Below, piece by piece: positions 11,727 through 19,929 of a DNA stretch of 31,418 nucleotides (positions are counted from its first letter, which is position 1; each line of letters begins with the position of its first letter). Origin of the DNA: Lysobacterales bacterium CG02_land_8_20_14_3_00_62_12 (GTDB lineage Bacteria > Pseudomonadota > Gammaproteobacteria > Xanthomonadales > Ahniellaceae). The position numbers and the translations under genes are program-made. The stretch covers positions 1 to 31,418 of the forward strand of contig PEUI01000314.1 of the NCBI GenBank assembly GCA_002785585.1, read 5' to 3'. The notes beneath the pieces are model-generated. The model was given only the letters and a program-made list of their open reading frames with translations, was not told the DNA's origin and searched no databases.

Positions 11727-12033
11727 ATCGTGACCAGCAACCGAGTTGGGGCAAGGCCGTGGCAGCACCGGCCGGTGGCGGTCGGGCAACCGCGCCTGGG
11801 GCAGGCTCCGGTCTCCCCCTTGACACCTCGCCTATACTGGTCAGCCCGTTCCGATAGGAATGGGACCGGCGGCATTGGCAGCCGGCGATTTCAGCCAGCC
11901 TGCTATTGGCAGGTGCTGGCACCAAACCGATCATGAACCGGCCGCCGCGCTTGGGCGCAGCGCTGCTTGGCTGTCCGTTGTCTGCCCCCAAATACGTTAT
12001 CTATCCACAGTTCAAGTTTGCAGAGGAAGGTCT

Positions 12034-13938
12034 ATGGCCGTTATCGATTTAGAGCCGCGCGATCAGCAATCCGAGATCAAAAAGCTGATCACCAAGGGCA
12101 AAGACCAGGGTTACCTCACCTACGCCGAAGTCAATGACCATCTGCCCGACGACATCGTCGATCCGGAGCAGATCGAAGACATCATCGGCATGATCAACGA
12201 TATGGGCATCCAGGTACTGGAAGCAGCGCCGGACGTGGAAACGCTGTTGTTGCAGGAATCGTCCTCGGTACAGGACGATGAAGCCGTCACCGAAGAAGCC
12301 ATCCAGGTGCTGTCGGCGGTCGAAGAAACCGGCCGCACCACCGATCCGGTGCGCATGTACATGCGCGAGATGGGTACCGTTGAACTGCTCACCCGCGAAG
12401 GCGAAATTGTCATCGCCAAGCGCATCGAAGAAGGTTTGGCGCAAGTGCAGAACGCATTGGCGCAGTTCCCTTGGTCGATTTCGTTGTTGCTGTCCGAATA
12501 CGCGGCGCACCTCGATGGCAAGAAGCGCATGAGTGAGTTCCTCACCGGCTTCTACGATCTCGAAGCGATCGCCGCCGCCGAAGCCGCCGCCGCCGCCGCC
12601 GCCGCCGCGGTACTCGCCGAAGAATTGTTGCTGGCGATCGAAAACGGCACCGCCCAGGCCAAAGACGAAGACGACGACGAAGAAGCGCCAGCCGAAGCGG
12701 AAGAAGCCAGCCCCGGCGATACCGGTCCCGACCCGGCCGAAGTGAAACGGCGGATGGAATTGTTCGCCGAGCTGTACGAAAAGTTCAAGGCCGCCCACGC
12801 CAAAGTGGGCGCCGAAGACAAGAAAACGCTGAAGTTTCGCAGACTGATCAGCGACGAGTTCCTCAAATTGAAACTGCCCTCGATCATGATCGACGGCATG
12901 GTCAAAAAATTGCGCGAAGTGGTCAACACCATTCGTAGCCACGAGCGCGGCATCCTCGATATCGCTGTGCGCCACGGCAAAATGCCGCGCAAAGAGTTCA
13001 TCAAGGTGTTCCCGGGCAAAGAGACCAACCTGCGCTGGGTCGATAACGAATGCCGCAAAAATGTGAAATGGGCGGCCACGCTCAAAAACTACAAGGCCGA
13101 AATCCAGGAGCATCAGGAGCGACTGCTGGGCCACGAAGTTGCGCTTTTCTTGAGTCTGCCGGAGATCAAAGACATCAATCGGCACATGTCGATCGGTGAG
13201 GCCAAAGCCCGTCGTGCCAAGAAAGAGATGGTCGAAGCCAACCTGCGCCTGGTTATTTCCATCGCCAAAAAATACACCAATCGTGGCCTGCAATTCCTCG
13301 ACCTGATCCAGGAAGGCAACATCGGCCTGATGAAAGCTGTGGACAAGTTCGAATACCGTCGCGGCTACAAGTTTTCGACCTACGCCACCTGGTGGATTCG
13401 CCAGGCGATCACCCGTTCGATTGCCGATCAAGCGCGCACCATCCGGATACCGGTGCACATGATCGAGACGATCAACAAGTTGAACCGCATCAGTCGCCAG
13501 ATGTTGCAGGAAATGGGCCGCGAGCCAACGCCCGATGAGCTCGCCAAGCGCATGGAAATGCCCGAAGACAAAATCCGCAAAGTGCTCAAGATCGCCAAAG
13601 AGCCGATCTCGATGGAAACCCCGATCGGCGACGACGAAGATTCGCACCTGGGTGACTTCATCGAAGACGGCGGCGCCGAATCTCCGGTCGAATCGGCCAC
13701 CACCACCGGCCTGCAGGAAACCGTCAAGGACGTGCTGTCGGGGCTGACGCCGCGCGAAGCCAAAGTGCTGCGGATGCGCTTTGGCATCGACATGAACACC
13801 GACCACACCCTGGAAGAAGTCGGCAAACAGTTTGATGTCACCCGCGAACGCATTCGCCAGATCGAAGCCAAAGCCCTGCGCAAGCTGCGTCATCCGAGTC
13901 GCTCCGAACAACTGCGTTCGTTCCTCGATCTGGAGTGA
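12034..13938 (+). CDS. rpoD: RNA polymerase primary sigma factor sigma70, about 634 aa
   Basis: Region 1.1, [13 protein letters not shown], acidic non-conserved region, [106 protein letters not shown] precedes ATG 12034. Confidence 0.99.
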
Positions 13939-14046
13939 CCGGGGGCGGGGGCGCTCGCGAGACCGAACACGCGCAGGGAGGCGCGGGCTGGCGCCCAGCA
14001 CCATGGATGGTTCGGTGCCGCTTCTGCGACAATCTGCCATTACGCC

Positions 14047-14248
14047 GGGCCTATGGCACGACGGTTAGGCATAGGTTGGGGTGAGCGCAGCGATGCCCAA
14101 CCAAGCCGGAGGCGGAGCAAGGTTTGGGTGGTTCGCGTTGTGGTGGGGTTTGTTGGGGTGACCGGCCGTCGCCGTTAAAGACCGCTACGCTCACCGCCAA
14201 CCTATGCGCTCTCGGTTCCAGGTTCGAGTTCTGGTGGGGTGAGGGCCC
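14047..14248 (+). pseudogene. Disrupted copy of tRNA-Ile(CAU): 5' 22 nt, REP insert, T-arm and acceptor 3' strand; anticodon arm and CCA missing
   Basis: GGGCCTATGGCACGACGGTTAG (14047-14068) and TCGGTTCCAGGTTCGAGTTCTGGTGGG (14212-14238) align to the intact tRNA with substitutions at tRNA positions 9, 14 and 61. Confidence 0.9.
14069..14207. mobile_element. REPIN-like non-autonomous element (inverted REP doublet, 139 bp)
   Basis: The ends are inverted repeats: GCATAGGTTGG-GGTGAGCG on the left versus GCATAGGTTGGCGGTGAGCG on the right, reverse-complemented. The left unit ATAG-GTTGGG-GTGAGCGCAGCGATG-CCCAAC is a GTAG-like REP hairpin. The right unit (14152-14205) carries an extra ~20 nt in its loop. 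Confidence 0.8.
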
Positions 14249-14370
14249 GCGTTCGCATGATGCCCGCAGGCATCGTGCGCGAGACCGAACGCACGCGCAG
14301 GGAGGCGCGGGCTGGCGCCCAGCACCATGGATGGTTCGGTGCCGCTTCTGCGACAATCTGCCATTACGCC

Positions 14371-14446
14371 GGGCCTATAGCACAACGGTTAGTGCAGCAG
14401 ACTCATAATCTGTCGGTTCCAGGTTCGAGTCCTGGTGGGCCCACCA
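14371..14446 (+). tRNA. ileX: tRNA-Ile2 (anticodon CAU, lysidine-modified type), 76 nt with encoded CCA
   Basis: Folds as a cloverleaf: acceptor GGGCCTA/TGGGCCC, D stem GCAC/GTGC, anticodon stem GCAGA/TCTGT with loop CTCATAA, T arm CCAGG-TTCGAGT-CCTGG, A73, CCA. The G1-C72 pair and the lack of three anticodon-stem GC pairs exclude fMet. The position after rpoD fits ileX. Ile versus elongator Met is an inference. Confidence 0.88.
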
Positions 14447-14456
14447 ATCCGCATCC

Positions 14457-14485
14457 GGAACTTTGCCCCAATAGTTAAACTCTCA
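14457..14485 (+). promoter_or_regulatory. sigmaE (RpoE/AlgU)-type promoter for dsbC: GGAACTT-N17-TCTCA
   Basis: -35 GGAACTT at 14457-14463 and -10 TCTCA at 14481-14485, 45 nt before the dsbC ATG. dsbC is a known sigmaE regulon member in E. coli. Confidence 0.62.
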
Positions 14486-14530
14486 AGCCCACCGCCCAGC
14501 CGGTGGCTGACCCCTACCCGAGGATTTCCG

Positions 14531-15262
14531 ATGCAAAAGCTTGCCCTGGCCGCACTGACGGTTGTTCTATCCAACGCCGCGCTGGCCGATGCCGCCGGCG
14601 AGCAGAAGGTGCGTGATGCGATCAAGTCGATGGTGCCAACGGCCAACATTGAAACCATCGCCGATTCGGCATTGCCCGGGTTTTTCGAGGTGGTGATCAG
14701 CGGCAACGTGCTTTACGCCAGCGCCGATGGCAAGTATTTGGTGCAGGGTCGCGTCTACGATGTAGCGCTGAAGCGCGACCTCACCGAGGGCAAAGAGGCC
14801 GGCCTGCGCAAGGGCAGCGTCGACAAGATCGGCGCCGACAAGCGGATCGTCTTTGCGGCGCGCAATCCCAAGCACCGCATCACCGTTTTCACCGATATCG
14901 ATTGCGGCTATTGCCGCAAGCTGCACCAGGAAATTGCCCAGTACAACGACCTCGGGATCAGCGTCGAGTACTTGTTCTTTCCGCGCGCCGGACTCGGTTC
15001 GCCGTCGTTTGATAAAGCGGTAACGGTGTGGTGCTCGGCGGATCGCAACCAGGCGTTGACCGATGCCAAAGCCGGCGTCGTCATCAAGCCAATCACTTGC
15101 AACAACCCGGTCACCGAGACGTTCATGCTCGGTCAGCGCGTCGGCGTCACCGGCACGCCCAGCATTGTTGCCGCCGATGGCACGCTGATTGGTGGCTACA
15201 TGCCGCCGCCGACCTTGCTGCAACGGCTGGAAGCCATTCAATCGACCGCCAAAGCGCTCTGA
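14531..15262 (+). CDS. dsbC: Periplasmic disulfide isomerase DsbC, about 243 aa
   Basis: Signal peptide MQKLALAALTVVLSNAALA, dimerisation domain, TVFTDIDCGYCRKLH active site, GVTGTP cis-Pro loop. SD GAGGA. Confidence 0.93.
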   Translation: MQKLALAALTVVLSNAALADAAGEQKVRDAIKSMVPTANIETIADSALPGFFEVVISGNVLYASADGKYLVQGRVYDVALKRDLTEGKEAGLRKGSVDKIGADKRIVFAARNPKHRITVFTDIDCGYCRKLHQEIAQYNDLGISVEYLFFPRAGLGSPSFDKAVTVWCSADRNQALTDAKAGVVIKPITCNNPVTETFMLGQRVGVTGTPSIVAADGTLIGGYMPPPTLLQRLEAIQSTAKAL

Positions 15263-18300: not shown

Positions 18301-19216
18301 GACTTCGCACGCCATGCAGCGCCTGCGCGACCACCCCGATTGTGCCGATGAAGAGCGCGCCAGTGTCGTCACCACCGGCGCGCACGCGCTGATGCCGGTG
18401 GTGGGCTTCGATCTCGCGGAAAACGTAGCCGCACCGTTTATTGGCCGGGGTGCGCGGCCGCTGATCGCGATCCTGCGCGAGCAGGGCGTCAATGGCCAGG
18501 TGGAAATGGCGGCGGCTTTTGTGCGCGCCGGCTTTGGCGCCATCGACGTACACATGAGCGATCTGCTGTCCGGTGAAGAAACCCTGGCGCGCTTCGCCGG
18601 ATTGGCCGCCTGTGGCGGTTTTTCATACGGGGATGTGCTCGGTGCTGGCCGTGGTTGGGCCACTTCCATCCTCCACCACGGCAACTTGGCGACGCAGTTT
18701 CAAGCCTTTTTCCATGACCCGAACAAGTTTGCCCTGGGGGTTTGCAACGGCTGCCAGATGCTGGCCGAGATCAAGCAACTGATTCCCGGCGCCGAACCGT
18801 GGCCGCGGTTCAAACGCAATCGCTCCGAGCAGTTTGAAGCCCGGCTCAGCTTGGTCGAAGTGCTCGATTCGCCGTCGATCTGGTTTCGAGGCATGGCCGG
18901 ATCGCGCTTGCCGGTGGTGGTTTCGCACGGCGAAGGCCGGGTCGATTTCAGTACCAGCGGCGATGTTGGGCAGGCGTTGGCGACCCTGCGCTACGTCACC
19001 GCCGCCGGCGCGGTTGCCGAAACCTATCCAGCCAATCCCAACGGTTCGCCCGCAGGCTTGACCGGTTTTACCAATGCGGATGGCCGCATCGCGTTGTTGA
19101 TGCCACACCCGGAGCGCGTTCACCGCTCGGTGCAGTTAAGCTGGCGGCCGCGCCACTGGCCGGATGACTCGCCGTGGATGCGCCTTTTCCAGAATGCCCG
19201 AGCCTGGCTGCAATGA
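15362..19216 (+). CDS. purL: Phosphoribosylformylglycinamidine synthase (large single-chain PurL), about 1284 aa
   Basis: PRIGTLSPWASKA, MFAQANSEHCRHK, KCETHNHPTAI, GSGGEIRDEG, HDVGAGG, HDRSDGG, GGFSYGDVLGAG, GVCNGCQM, LMPHPER. Start at 15362 is the most likely one. Confidence 0.97.
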   Translation: MLLLAGHEHRSAFRRERLDQGLRAVVADLRLAQASNFFVVKAASVVIDGARLASVLDADTDAPDEVVDSLWVVPRIGTLSPWASKALELLRAAGLAVASIEQGWRYVVPGFSALTAAVRAQVLAVLHDPMTQSVLMQRRELAGIFQVQSPAALQIISLGAEPQQQLAAANRQLGLALSDDEIDYLADCYQRLGRDPSDAELMMFAQANSEHCRHKVFNANWVIDGALAERSLFAMIKTTHQRQPIGTLSAYHDNAAVIGTTAVARFYASAADRQWRACAEPVAIAIKCETHNHPTAIAPFAGASTGSGGEIRDEGATGRGAKPKAGLTGFTVSHLRIPGLPRPWEAARELPPRMASAFTIMRDAPLGAAAFNNEFGRPALCGYFRAFEHRQGALIRGYDKPIMLAGGLGNLHPDQVQKQKLQQGDAIIVLGGPAMLIGLGGGAASSLASGDSSAALDFASVQRDNPEMERRCQEVIDRCSALRADNPIVSVHDVGAGGLANAIPELLNDSAVGGVIDLRAIPNDAPGMSPMQIWCNESQERYVVGLRPQDLPRFLAICRRERCPCAVVGRATQTAQLVVADARLGGNPVDLPMAVLFGKATSLQRNAERLPVGSVALAIDTSIDHALRRVLCHPSVGSKSFLISIGDRSVGGLCARDQMVGAWQTPVADCALTLSDFSGFTGEAMAVGERSPLALLDAAASARMAVAEALLNIAAAPISRREDIKLSANWMAAVNHPGEGAALFDAVRALAMESCPALHLSIPVGKDSLSMQAAWPTPAGVQRVVSPLSLVVSAFAPVADVRRALTPELRLDAGPSRIVLIDFGGGKNRLGGSILAQCFGQLGEHAPDLDDAAALAAGFDTVQQLNRDDRLLAYHDRSDGGLLVALLEMAFAARCGLDIDLGTTPEQSLAALFNEELGALIQVREADLEIVQTAFAEAGLAACWRPLATPRADSSDVRLRDASGATLVWSLAELLALWQQTSHAMQRLRDHPDCADEERASVVTTGAHALMPVVGFDLAENVAAPFIGRGARPLIAILREQGVNGQVEMAAAFVRAGFGAIDVHMSDLLSGEETLARFAGLAACGGFSYGDVLGAGRGWATSILHHGNLATQFQAFFHDPNKFALGVCNGCQMLAEIKQLIPGAEPWPRFKRNRSEQFEARLSLVEVLDSPSIWFRGMAGSRLPVVVSHGEGRVDFSTSGDVGQALATLRYVTAAGAVAETYPANPNGSPAGLTGFTNADGRIALLMPHPERVHRSVQLSWRPRHWPDDSPWMRLFQNARAWLQ

Positions 19217-19929
19217 GCAACGACCCGAACCCCGCCTCTGCATCCGCCGAAGTCGCCGAGCCGATTTCGCTCAAGGCGTTTTTTCTGCTCGGCGTCCTCT
19301 GGCTGCCGCTTGCGGTATTTGTCTGGTTTGGCCTGCGCAGCGTCGTGGTCTATCCGATCACCCGGCTGGCGCGGATTTTTCTCGACTGGTGGCTGCCCGG
19401 CGTGATCCACGATTCCAGCCAGTACGTACACTATTTCAAGTTCACTGCGGTGGTGCCGTTGCCCCCGGGCATGGTCGCCCAGGCCGGTCAGATTCCGGCG
19501 GTCGATGGCAGCTCCAACGCGTTGCTGTTCACCTATGGATTGGCGGTGTTCTGGGGTTTGGTGTTCGCCACGCCAGACACCGGCGACTACTCTTTGCTAC
19601 GGCGCTTGCGCACGGCGCTGCTCGGTTGGTTGCTGTTGATGCCGATCCAGGCGCTCTCCATCTGTGCCGATGTCGCCAAGCAATTGTTCATTGATCTGGG
19701 TCCGGCCGGAATGCAAATGGCGACCGAACATCGGGTCAATCTGGAATGGGTGGCGTATGCCTATCAGGCGGCGACGCTGATCGTTCCGATGATTTCGGCG
19801 CTGCTGGTATGGGCGCTGTTTCATCGCCGTTTTCTGGAACACATCCGCTTCGATGCCGCGCCGACAGCGGAACCAGTCGCCGTGATCGAAGGTCGCAAGC
19901 AGCCACCGCACGAGCCAGAAAACCCATGA
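19213..19929 (+). CDS. Multi-pass membrane protein resembling exosortase-H-associated membrane proteins (exosortase-like fold, catalytic residues absent), about 238 aa
   Basis: About 5-6 hydrophobic helices flanking one ~50-aa soluble beta-rich loop. Pattern WLPL...NALLFTYGLAVFWGLVFATP...LLGWLLLMP...AYAYQAATLIVP. ATGA overlaps with both the purL stop and the gspE start. The family call is by recall; no HMM search was run. Confidence 0.6.
   Translation: MSNDPNPASASAEVAEPISLKAFFLLGVLWLPLAVFVWFGLRSVVVYPITRLARIFLDWWLPGVIHDSSQYVHYFKFTAVVPLPPGMVAQAGQIPAVDGSSNALLFTYGLAVFWGLVFATPDTGDYSLLRRLRTALLGWLLLMPIQALSICADVAKQLFIDLGPAGMQMATEHRVNLEWVAYAYQAATLIVPMISALLVWALFHRRFLEHIRFDAAPTAEPVAVIEGRKQPPHEPENP

What the first reader, a model, noticed from the sequence alone, without database searches (positions are those of the whole stretch)
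13956..14446. Tandem duplication of the tRNA-Ile(CAU) gene with its leader; the first copy is wrecked
Seen: two copies offset by 322-324 nt, each with ~90 nt of leader plus tRNA sequence. Copy 2 is a complete tRNA; copy 1 has the 5' 22 nt and a 27-nt T-arm piece but no anticodon arm or CCA. Known: tRNA-Ile2 is usually a single, essential gene for reading AUA. Inference: duplication supplied a spare copy that let an otherwise lethal insertion persist. This would be a snapshot of how REP elements can colonise essential loci. Annotation tools would call only copy 2.
Basis: partly seen in the sequence, partly recalled or inferred. Interest (0 to 1): 0.7.

Follow-up and report, generated by a model that had tools for sequence, protein, structure and literature searches.

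The report
Dead tRNA-Ile2 stub beside working gene
Just upstream of this bacterium's only AUA-reading isoleucine tRNA gene lies a dead partial copy of it, one unit of a repeat-linked tandem array seen in at least two dozen related species, and this copy was already broken before a second hairpin repeat landed in it.

Summary
Between rpoD and dsbC lie two head-to-tail units of leader plus tRNA-Ile(CAU). Only the second (14371-14446) is a tRNA. The first keeps tRNA positions 1-22 and 41-69. A 140-nt hairpin repeat (REP-A, about 60 hits in this genome) stands in place of positions 23-40. Contigs from four metagenome runs tile every junction, so it is not an assembly artefact.

Copy 1 ends at tRNA position 69, where it is fused to the head (GTGAG) of a second structured repeat, REP-B. 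REP-B is followed by the leader and the intact tRNA. The same joint occurs in at least two dozen Lysobacterales species in four families, including cultured Rehaibacterium terrae and Tahibacter soli. Some arrays hold three stubs. In some species the stub carries an Azoarcus-type group I intron and the working copy does not. So the stub lacked its 3' acceptor strand from the moment its unit was made, and REP-A hit an already dead copy, not a spare essential gene. A tRNA-Arg gene in a sister species shows the same layout.

How the joint forms is unresolved. I found no published description. This scan has noted similar layouts in other phyla.

The parts
11860..13938 (+). rpoD (primary sigma factor), upstream neighbour
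   Evidence: ORF list; six Sigma70 Pfam domains
13956..14046 (+). Leader copy 1. It is a 5'-truncated REP-B/X element (GTGAG head and first hairpin missing) plus a spacer with a TGCGACAAT box (14025-14033).
   Evidence: 91 of 93 positions match leader copy 2, with one 2-nt indel and no substitutions
14047..14068 (+). Stub, tRNA-Ile(CAU) positions 1-22 (2 substitutions vs copy 2)
14069..14209 (+). REP-A: composite hairpin repeat with about 11-nt inverted termini (CATAGGTTGG... / ...CCAACCTATG). It stands in place of tRNA positions 23-40.
   Evidence: 64 hits and 61 hits in the own genome; about 10 near-full copies define the ends; folds as a long hairpin
14210..14238 (+). Stub, tRNA positions 41-69 (variable loop, T arm, first 4 nt of the 3' acceptor strand). 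It ends at the array joint.
14239..14336 (+). REP-B / X element, full copy: GTGAG head, long hairpin, a second small hairpin, and a CCATGGATGG tail. It forms the joint with the stub at 14238|14239.
   Evidence: Homologous dispersed copies in same-genus genomes. In this genome it occurs only at this locus. DNA fold.
14337..14370 (+). Spacer and leader of the working gene, with a TGCGACAAT box at 14349-14357 (possible extended -10; inferred only)
   Evidence: Sequence. The motif recurs upstream of working copies in relatives. The consensus promoter scan found nothing.
14371..14446 (+). Intact tRNA-Ile(CAU) (ileX type), the only one found in the genome
   Evidence: ARAGORN; Rfam 70.5 bits; genome-wide tRNA list; best E. 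coli match is annotated tRNA-Ile, 76% over 76 nt; TilS
14531..15262 (+). dsbC, downstream neighbour
   Evidence: DsbC_N plus Thioredoxin_2

Best explanation
The locus is a two-unit tandem array. The repeating unit is [REP-B hairpin element + short promoter/leader + tRNA-Ile(CAU) positions 1-69]. Only the last unit runs on through positions 70-76 and is a gene. Each earlier unit ends at the GG of position 68-69, fused to the GTGAG head of the next REP-B. Such a unit therefore lacks a 3' acceptor strand and CCA from the moment it is made, and it is a pseudogene. In this genome the array was made or re-expanded recently, because the leader copies differ only by a 2-nt indel. The left end was trimmed back to 17 nt after the rpoD stop codon. 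A different dispersed repeat, REP-A, then replaced positions 23-40 of the already dead stub. This is ordinary neutral decay, of which relatives show other versions. Shown: the anatomy, the shared joint, the spread across species, and the dead state of the stub. Inferred: the order of events, and that the joint arises by breakage and joining at the REP-B head (a nick, a stalled fork at the hairpin foot, or trimming of DNA to the hairpin) to a nearby GG inside the tRNA, followed by unequal crossing-over that adds or removes units.
For: The joint TGGTGGG|GTGAG at 14238|14239 is found in the same form in same-genus G005 and G001. It is found in 9 species in a scan of about 185,000 species' genomes. 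A variant head, GGGG|CGA, is found in 13 more species. In an even sample of the order, 11 of 401 genomes in 4 families carry it, and the reversed control pattern has 0 hits. In every case a complete tRNA (70-76 Rfam bits) lies about 180-200 nt downstream, and the stubs score 34-61 bits. Array sizes vary: 1 stub in most genomes, 2 in L048, 3 in G107 and in Rehaibacterium terrae DSM 25897. This fits unequal crossing-over. Stubs decay in different ways. One has a REP in the D loop (L050). One has a 60-nt insert after the anticodon (G047). One has an anticodon-loop substitution (Tahibacter). Two are truncated at position 29/30, again joined to a REP-B head, GTGAG in G001 and GTGCG in G003. Here REP-A is the damage. 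Both copies in the window share a genome-specific TCGG variable loop and a near-identical leader, so copy 1 is a young unit of the same array. The same layout occurs at a tRNA-Arg(CCG) gene in G008. There, exact REP-B copies separate 45-nt repeats spanning -26 to +19, with the joint again at GG|GTGAG. In most arrays a whole or degenerate REP-B also lies upstream of the first unit, as a tandem duplication of the unit predicts. I saw this in the window, L042, L047, G028 and the G008 tRNA-Arg array.
Against: Several arrays have no recognisable REP-B upstream of the first stub (G107, G005, L045, L048). A plain tandem duplication of the unit does not predict this. Wherever one copy has a group I intron, it is the stub and never the working copy. 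Two cases reach the Rfam threshold (G005 and L049). Two more rest on homology (L045 and G051). A plain duplication predicts the intron in both copies. No enzyme is identified: 14 Y1-transposase loci examined have no REP-A or REP-B within 1.5 kb. The microhomology at the joint is only 2-4 nt. The number of independent origins is unknown, because kin are not independent and I could not build a species tree that included G001 and G005. In the window the stub's tRNA pieces carry 4 substitutions in 51 nt. The first leader has none in the 79 nt of the exact repeat, or in the rest of its 91 nt (Fisher p = 0.02). This is unexpected if the whole first unit is neutral.
Confidence: 0.7

Rival explanations
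1. Self-restoring cassette. The unit [REP-B + promoter + tRNA 1-69] is itself a small mobile or imported cassette. It enters a resident tRNA-Ile2 gene exactly after position 69, either by single-strand transposition of the IS200/IS605 or RAYT kind, or by one-sided homologous recombination of incoming DNA whose end is protected by the hairpin. It overwrites the resident promoter and body and re-uses the resident positions 70-76. The resident gene is left as the stub. The window would then be a cassette array whose older unit has decayed.
For: The intron asymmetry fits: in G005, L049, L045 and G051 the stub has the intron and the working copy does not. The G005 stub intron is as intact as, and 93.5% identical to, the working intron of G008. 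In at least 7 species the stub's leader is unlike the working copy's leader. Some arrays lack a REP-B upstream of the first stub. All joints lie 3' of GG, and REP-B copies abut each other as ...GGATGG|GTGAGG; this suggests insertion after GG with no short target duplication. X is conserved across four families even in genomes where it is not dispersed.
Against: Stub and working copy share lineage-specific tRNA variants, for example the GCAC/GTGC D stem of this genus and the CAAC/CAAT and GAAT/GAGT variants that differ by genome. This points to local origin or heavy gene conversion. The P1 and P2 boxes (TGCTACCAT and TGCGACAAT) look homologous, 7 of 9, as expected for diverged duplicates. No transposase is linked to the element. 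No free-standing cassette was seen away from a tRNA gene. Collapse and re-expansion of arrays by homologous recombination can interconvert the observed states.
Confidence: 0.2
2. A fresh duplication made two working tRNA-Ile2 genes, and the spare copy allowed an otherwise lethal REP insertion into one of them.
For: The leader copies are nearly identical. REP-A is a real dispersed repeat. A single intact Ile2 gene remains.
Against: Copy 1 ends at position 69 at a joint shared with about two dozen species, so it never had a 3' acceptor strand. REP-A replaces 18 nt rather than inserting cleanly.
Confidence: 0.05
3. The stub plus REP-A is a functional chimeric RNA: a tRNA-like scaffold that presents a hairpin. 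This is the reading of scan note e1-5291472.
For: It lies behind a duplicated leader with no substitutions. It folds into a long hairpin flanked by a T arm.
Against: The fold z-score is only -2.3, and the acceptor ends do not pair. There is no Rfam match. No other genome examined has REP-A in its stub, and stubs elsewhere carry unrelated damage. The REP-A body is an ordinary family member, 88-90% identical to the other near-full-length copies.
Confidence: 0.04
4. Assembly artefact: mis-joined repeats in a metagenome-assembled genome.
For: The genome is a 419-contig assembly, and REP-A copies often sit at contig ends.
Against: Independent contigs from four runs cover every unique junction with no differences, and the shared leader has twofold depth. 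The same architecture is present in many independent assemblies and in two isolate genomes.
Confidence: 0.01

Closest known systems
E. coli tyrT locus: 178-bp tandem repeats that each carry a piece of tRNA-Tyr (rtT region). Recalled from the literature, not retrieved here; also named in scan note e1-1551367.
   Same: Tandem units next to a tRNA gene, each containing a fragment of that tRNA. They are presumed products of unequal recombination, and the fragments are non-functional.
   Different: The tyrT repeats carry the 3' end of the tRNA and lie downstream. Here the units carry the promoter plus the 5' 69 nt and lie upstream. A structured dispersed repeat sits exactly at every joint, and the layout recurs across four families.
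REP / BIME / REPIN elements and their RAYT (Y1 HUH) transposases (PMC3116915, PMC2817692, PMC3686654, seen as search results)
   Same: REP-A and REP-B are short GC-rich palindromic repeats. They are dispersed (REP-A in this genome, REP-B in sister genomes) and sometimes occur in arrays. They have a conserved short head (GTGAG) next to the hairpin, like the GTAG head of classical REPs.
   Different: No RAYT gene was found beside them. REP-B is about 105 nt with two hairpins. It has only about 10 detectable copies per genome, and in this genome none outside the tRNA locus. Classical REPs are not reported to sit at joints of tRNA partial duplications.
Integrative elements and genomic islands that target tRNA genes with tyrosine integrases
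   Same: A tRNA gene is interrupted, yet an intact tRNA is regenerated, and a partial tRNA copy remains as a scar.
   Different: Those elements carry and duplicate the 3' part of the tRNA, encode an integrase, and are kilobases long. Here the 5' part with a promoter is duplicated, the intervening DNA is about 130 nt, and there is no integrase.
[quoted passage not shown]
   Same: Relatives carry a 233-268-nt group I intron in the anticodon loop of tRNA-Ile(CAU), directly after CAT. Rfam Intron_gpI scores are 54-70 bits.
   Different: The window itself has no intron. In this order the intron is found both in working single-copy genes and in dead stubs.
IS200/IS605-family single-strand transposition and its non-autonomous derivatives
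   Same: Insertion 3' of a short specific sequence without target duplication, and hairpins next to the ends. Bypass of one end could mobilise neighbouring DNA. This would give exactly stub|X...tRNA(1-69)|70-76.
   Different: No TnpA is linked to the element, no excised circle has been observed, and the target is only a GG. This is an analogy of mechanism, not a demonstrated membership.

Membership tests
tRNA-Ile2 (anticodon CAU, lysidine-modified; ileX type): copy 2 | Complete cloverleaf with CAU anticodon | tested here: met
   ARAGORN; Rfam tRNA 70.5 bits, model positions 1-71
tRNA-Ile2 (anticodon CAU, lysidine-modified; ileX type): copy 2 | Ile2 identity rather than initiator or elongator Met | tested here: met
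   The best E. coli matches are annotated tRNA-Ile, 76% over all 76 nt, two places per genome. The other CAT tRNA in the genome is initiator-like by sequence. C4-G69 and C5-G68 are present; these are TilS determinants by my recollection of the literature, not tested here.
tRNA-Ile2 (anticodon CAU, lysidine-modified; ileX type): copy 2 | Lysidine synthetase TilS encoded in the genome | tested here: met
   TIGR02432, 179 bits (cut-off 93.6), at C374
Functional tRNA: copy 1 (stub) | Anticodon arm present | tested here: not met
   Positions 23-40 are replaced by REP-A. Not called by ARAGORN or Rfam.
Functional tRNA: copy 1 (stub) | 3' acceptor strand pairing with positions 1-7, plus discriminator base and CCA or a processable 3' end | tested here: not met
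   After position 69 the sequence is GTGAGGG, which gives G-G mismatches at 1-72 and 3-70 and no CCA. The ends are unpaired in the fold.
REP / REPIN-type repeat: REP-A | Many dispersed copies in the genome | tested here: met
   64 and 61 hits; about 10 near-full copies at 78-92% identity
REP / REPIN-type repeat: REP-A | Palindromic, with inverted REP units forming a hairpin | tested here: met
   Inverted termini and a long stem
REP / REPIN-type repeat: REP-A and REP-B | Cognate RAYT (Y1 transposase) gene flanked by the same repeat | tested here: not met
   Y1_Tnp hits exist. None of the 14 loci fetched has REP-A or REP-B within about 1.5 kb. Not all Y1 genes of G008 were fetched, so absence is not proven.
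REP-type repeat: REP-B / X | Dispersed copies away from the tRNA locus | tested here: inconclusive
   Met in sister genomes G001-G008, about 10 copies each. Not met in this genome or in G107, where the only copies are at the tRNA-Ile2 locus.
Tandem duplication array | Head-to-tail units with one constant novel joint, and variable unit number among relatives | tested here: met
Integrase-borne island at a tRNA gene | Duplicated 3' segment of the tRNA and an adjacent integrase gene | tested here: not met
   The 5' segment is the one duplicated. Only about 130 nt lie between the copies, with no ORF of that kind.
Group I intron in the stub of this window | Intron_gpI covariance-model match | tested here: not met
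   No match in 13500-14900 even at E up to 10. Present in relatives' stubs.
IS200/IS605-like non-autonomous element: X plus tRNA 1-69 | Y1 TnpA acting in trans, an excised circle junction, and target-specific insertion without duplication | not testable with these tools
   Only the sequence pattern (always 3' of GG, no short target duplication) is compatible.

The most novel reading that the evidence does not exclude
REP-B/X with its promoter and the first 69 nt of tRNA-Ile2 is a small selfish cassette. It inserts after a GG inside a tRNA gene and rebuilds an intact tRNA from its own 5' part and the host's last 7 nt. It thereby displaces the resident gene, including residents that carry a group I intron, and makes itself indispensable. 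It would be the proteobacterial member of a wider, undescribed class of hairpin elements that enter tRNA genes while leaving an intact copy next door. This scan has noted such layouts in CPR and Omnitrophota genomes.
Probability: 0.2. Interest if true: 0.8.

Novelty: new variant of a known kind. Interest (0 to 1): 0.5.

Why it matters
For this window alone the result is sobering: the 'wrecked' copy is a pseudogene that was never a spare, so it is not a snapshot of a repeat colonising an essential gene. The wider pattern is more interesting. A structured repeat sits at one fixed joint inside an essential single-copy tRNA gene in at least two dozen species of four families, always with a rebuilt intact gene downstream. 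A second tRNA shows the same layout. This points to a specific and apparently undescribed way in which hairpin repeats and tRNA genes rearrange together. It also offers a route by which a group I intron can be retired from a tRNA gene: the intron-bearing copy becomes the stub. Two cultured strains carry arrays, so the question can be tested experimentally. For annotation, these stubs score 34-61 bits with the Rfam tRNA model and can be miscalled as extra tRNA-Met or tRNA-Ile genes.

Tried and rejected
1. RAYT link. Y1_Tnp genes exist in the own genome (one lies 20 kb downstream on the same contig) and in five sister genomes, but blastn found no REP-A or REP-B in the 14 loci fetched.
2. Promoter and terminator scan of 13850-14560: no consensus hits. 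The TGCGACAAT promoter is therefore only an inference.
3. Rfam at E up to 10 gave nothing credible for REP-A or REP-B.
4. Literature searches on REP or RAYT with tRNA duplication, on truncated or pseudo-tRNA tandem duplication, and on the tyrT repeats returned no description of this layout. The library is incomplete, so this is not proof of novelty.
5. A species tree to count independent origins could not be built, because rpoD was not found in G001 and G005.
6. The Persicobacter diffluens hit of the second pattern scan is an ordinary unrelated tRNA, a false positive.
7. No single Logan contig spans the whole interval, and no RNA runs were listed, so expression of the stub could not be examined.
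8. Considered and dropped: copy 1 as a direct descendant of an intron-bearing stub with REP-A replacing the intron. Copy 1 shares the genome-specific TCGG variable loop and the P2-type leader with copy 2, which argues for a young unit of the intronless type, but a former intron cannot be excluded.
9. A fixed long target-site duplication made by a transposase was considered. The duplicated lengths differ (45 nt at tRNA-Arg, about 95 nt at tRNA-Ile2), and most arrays have a REP-B remnant upstream of the first unit, so tandem duplication of the unit fits better.

Full report
WHAT IS THERE. The interval between rpoD (11860-13938) and dsbC (14531-15262) holds two head-to-tail units. Unit 2 has four parts. 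The first is a structured repeat that I call REP-B or X (14239-14336): a GTGAG head, a long hairpin, a small second hairpin and a CCATGGATGG tail. The second is a 34-nt spacer with a TGCGACAAT box. The third and fourth are tRNA positions 1-69 and 70-76, which together form a complete tRNA with anticodon CAT (14371-14446). Only this tRNA is called by ARAGORN and by Rfam (70.5 bits).

Unit 1 starts 17 nt after the rpoD stop codon. It begins with a REP-B that has lost its head and first hairpin (13956 onward). Then comes the same spacer, which differs from unit 2 only by a 2-nt indel with no substitutions. Then come tRNA positions 1-22 (2 substitutions), a 140-nt block (14069-14209), and tRNA positions 41-69 (2 substitutions). 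At 14238|14239 the stub is joined directly to the GTGAG head of unit 2. The stub therefore lacks positions 23-40 and 70-76.

THE INSERT. The 140-nt block, REP-A, has 61-64 matches in the 3.1-Mb, 419-contig genome. About ten are near-full-length copies, and their alignment defines the ends: CATAGGTTGG... on the left and ...CCAACCTATGCGC on the right. It folds into a long hairpin closed by its inverted termini. It replaces 18 nt of the stub, so it is not a clean insertion.

IS IT REAL? Logan contigs from four aquifer or groundwater metagenome runs cover every unique junction with no differences. They link rpoD to leader 1, leader 1 to the 5' stub and into REP-A, and REP-A to the T arm, the joint and leader 2 (three runs). 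One 360-nt contig runs from REP-A to the end of the intact tRNA. The shared leader unitig has twofold depth. The tandem order is the only linear path through these pieces. The same architecture also appears in many independent assemblies (see below).

IDENTITY OF THE WORKING GENE. The genome has 43 tRNAs, of which two have CAT anticodons. The other one is initiator-like. The best E. coli matches of copy 2 are annotated tRNA-Ile, cover all 76 nt, and occur at two places per genome. TilS is encoded. Copy 2 is therefore the single ileX-type tRNA found. The genome is 96% complete, and an elongator tRNA-Met was not assembled.

WHAT RELATIVES SHOW. Same-genus genomes carry several states of this locus.

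- G004, G006 and G008 have one gene with a group I intron directly after the anticodon, at the site known from Azoarcus pre-tRNA-Ile. G012, from another genus of the same family, has the same. Evidence: Rfam Intron_gpI 54-70 bits for G004, G008 and G012. In G006 only the 3' part of the intron lies on the contig, seen by sequence. PMC13168695.
- G002 has one intronless gene.
- G005 has an intron-bearing copy that stops at position 69. It is fused to GTGAG and REP-B, and then comes a complete intronless copy.
- G001 has an intron remnant plus exon 2 up to position 69, then a REP-B unit, then a 29-nt stub, then another REP-B, then the complete gene.
- G003 has a 29-nt stub, REP-B, and the complete gene.

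The joint after position 69 in G005 and G001 is the same as the one in the window.

An exact-pattern scan of one genome per species (about 185,000 species) for the T arm plus this joint found 9 species. A scan for the variant head GGGG|CGA found 13 more, after removing one false positive. All are Lysobacterales by their record titles: Chiayiivirga, Aquimonas, Lysobacter, Rhodanobacter, Rhodanobacteraceae, and the cultured Rehaibacterium terrae DSM 25897 and Tahibacter soli BL. In an even sample of 401 genomes of the order, 11 carry the joint, in four families, and the reversed control pattern gave none.

Every locus has a complete tRNA about 180-200 nt after the joint, scoring 70-76 bits, while the stubs score 34-61 bits. 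Unit number varies: two stubs in L048, three in G107 and in Rehaibacterium.

Stubs carry different lesions. L050 has another GTGAG-headed repeat in the D loop. G047 has a 60-nt insert after the anticodon. Tahibacter has an A37C change. The first Rehaibacterium stub has a badly diverged anticodon loop. G001 and G003 have truncations. REP-A in the window is one more lesion of this kind.

A unit that ends at position 69 never had a 3' acceptor strand. In the stub, pairs 1-72 and 3-70 would be G-G, and no CCA follows. The upstream copy was therefore not a working spare that absorbed a lethal hit. REP-A landed in a pseudogene. The near-identity of the two leaders and the shared genome-specific TCGG variable loop show that the window's stub is a young unit of the array. 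It is most simply explained as a product of unequal crossing-over in an older array whose upstream part was later deleted back to rpoD. That order of events is inferred.

THE MORE INTERESTING ELEMENT IS REP-B. In sister genomes REP-B is a modestly dispersed repeat of about 105 nt, with about 10 detectable copies. Its outer stem varies while staying paired. Copies can abut as ...GGATGG|GTGAGG, which defines both ends. In this genome and in G107 it exists only at the tRNA-Ile2 locus.

In G008 the same layout occurs at tRNA-Arg(CCG). A short REP-B remnant is followed by a 45-nt segment spanning -26 to +19 (a TGCGATAAT box, the leader and tRNA positions 1-19). This segment is repeated three times, with exact REP-B copies between the repeats. 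The joint is again GG|GTGAG, and the last repeat runs on into the complete tRNA.

All joints seen fuse a GG to the REP-B head: Ile position 69, Ile position 29/30, Arg position 19 and the L050 D loop. At least three different positions therefore share one partner, the exact end of REP-B. Random tandem duplication does not predict this. It suggests breakage or stalling at the foot of the REP-B hairpin.

MECHANISM: WHAT I COMMIT TO AND WHAT STAYS OPEN. The most likely account (about 0.7 for the status of the stub and the array; less for the enzymology) has two steps. First, REP-B lay upstream of the promoter. Second, a break-and-join event between its head and a GG inside the tRNA duplicated the unit [REP-B + promoter + tRNA up to that GG]. 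Homologous unequal crossing-over then expands and collapses the array, and stubs decay neutrally.

Collapse by crossing-over in exon 1 or in exon 2 can regenerate the single-copy states seen in G002 and G008.

Two observations fit less well. Some arrays lack a REP-B before the first stub. Also, whenever only one copy has the intron, that copy is the stub (G005 and L049 at the Rfam threshold; L045 and G051 by 74-81% identity to the other introns).

Both observations are explained by the rival model (about 0.2). In it, the unit is a cassette that enters after position 69, by single-strand transposition of the IS200/IS605 kind or by one-sided homologous recombination of incoming DNA. It overwrites the resident gene and re-uses the resident's last 7 nt.

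Several points count against the rival. Stub and working copy share lineage-specific tRNA variants. The two promoter boxes look homologous (7 of 9). No transposase is linked to the element.

COMPARISON WITH KNOWN SYSTEMS. The nearest textbook case is the E. coli tyrT repeat region, which has tRNA 3' fragments lying downstream (recalled from memory). REP, BIME and REPIN elements share the kind of repeat, but not the association with tRNA joints and, so far, not a RAYT partner. Integrase-borne islands duplicate the 3' part of a tRNA and are ruled out. I found no paper that describes this layout.

Notes from this scan report similar layouts (a hairpin element, a 5' tRNA stub and an intact tRNA) in CPR and Omnitrophota genomes. 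I did not test those notes. They are leads, not support.

VERDICT. The window's feature is an ordinary decaying pseudogene, but it belongs to a recurrent and apparently undescribed repeat-tRNA array in Lysobacterales, and that array deserves experimental follow-up in the two cultured carriers.

Noticed in passing
L033 (G008:C39), L036 (G004:C42), L037 (G006:C64), L039 (G012:C2); stubs in L032/L046 (G005), L049, L045, L088: Azoarcus-type group I introns (233-268 nt) sit directly after the CAT anticodon of tRNA-Ile(CAU) in several Lysobacterales. They occur both in working single-copy genes and in dead stubs. The intron-bearing alleles of this genus have a GGGGA/TCCCT anticodon stem, and the intronless ones have GAAGA/TCTTT.
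   Followed up: partly
L063 (G008:C32:23900-25100), positions 90-530: A tRNA-Arg(CCG) gene is preceded by three 45-nt copies of its own promoter, leader and first 19 nt. Exact REP-B copies separate them (period 138). This is the same architecture as at tRNA-Ile2.
   Followed up: partly
G000 contig C178:33888-34148 (about 2.5 kb beyond the window's end; about 20 kb downstream of the tRNA locus), locus L051: A Y1_Tnp (IS200/RAYT-like) match of 37 bits in a 161-aa frame lies on the same contig. No REP-A or REP-B lies within 1.5 kb of it.
   Followed up: partly
L089 (G357:C1), minus strand, about 1290-1500: Upstream of the usual stub there are further repeats of about 123 nt. Each carries a tRNA-Ile2 5' half that ends after the anticodon arm and is fused to a different repeat.
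   Followed up: no
L031 (G001:C226), minus strand, about 975-1100: The stub's intron is cut off at its 5' side by low-GC DNA unlike its surroundings, possibly a separate insertion.
   Followed up: no
own genome contigs C5, C68, C105, C138, C141, C290 (ends): REP-A copies and arrays of its 33-nt module sit at many contig ends (and in the C319 array), so this repeat is one cause of the fragmented assembly.
   Followed up: no
window 13956-14046 vs 14047-14068 and 14210-14238: The first leader has no substitutions relative to the second, while the stub's tRNA pieces have 4 in 51 nt (Fisher p = 0.02). The first leader may be kept as a second promoter or homogenised by gene conversion.
   Followed up: partly
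window 19213-19929: An earlier scan note (e1-5291473) describes a catalytically dead exosortase-like membrane protein heading a type II secretion operon here. I did not examine it.
   Followed up: no
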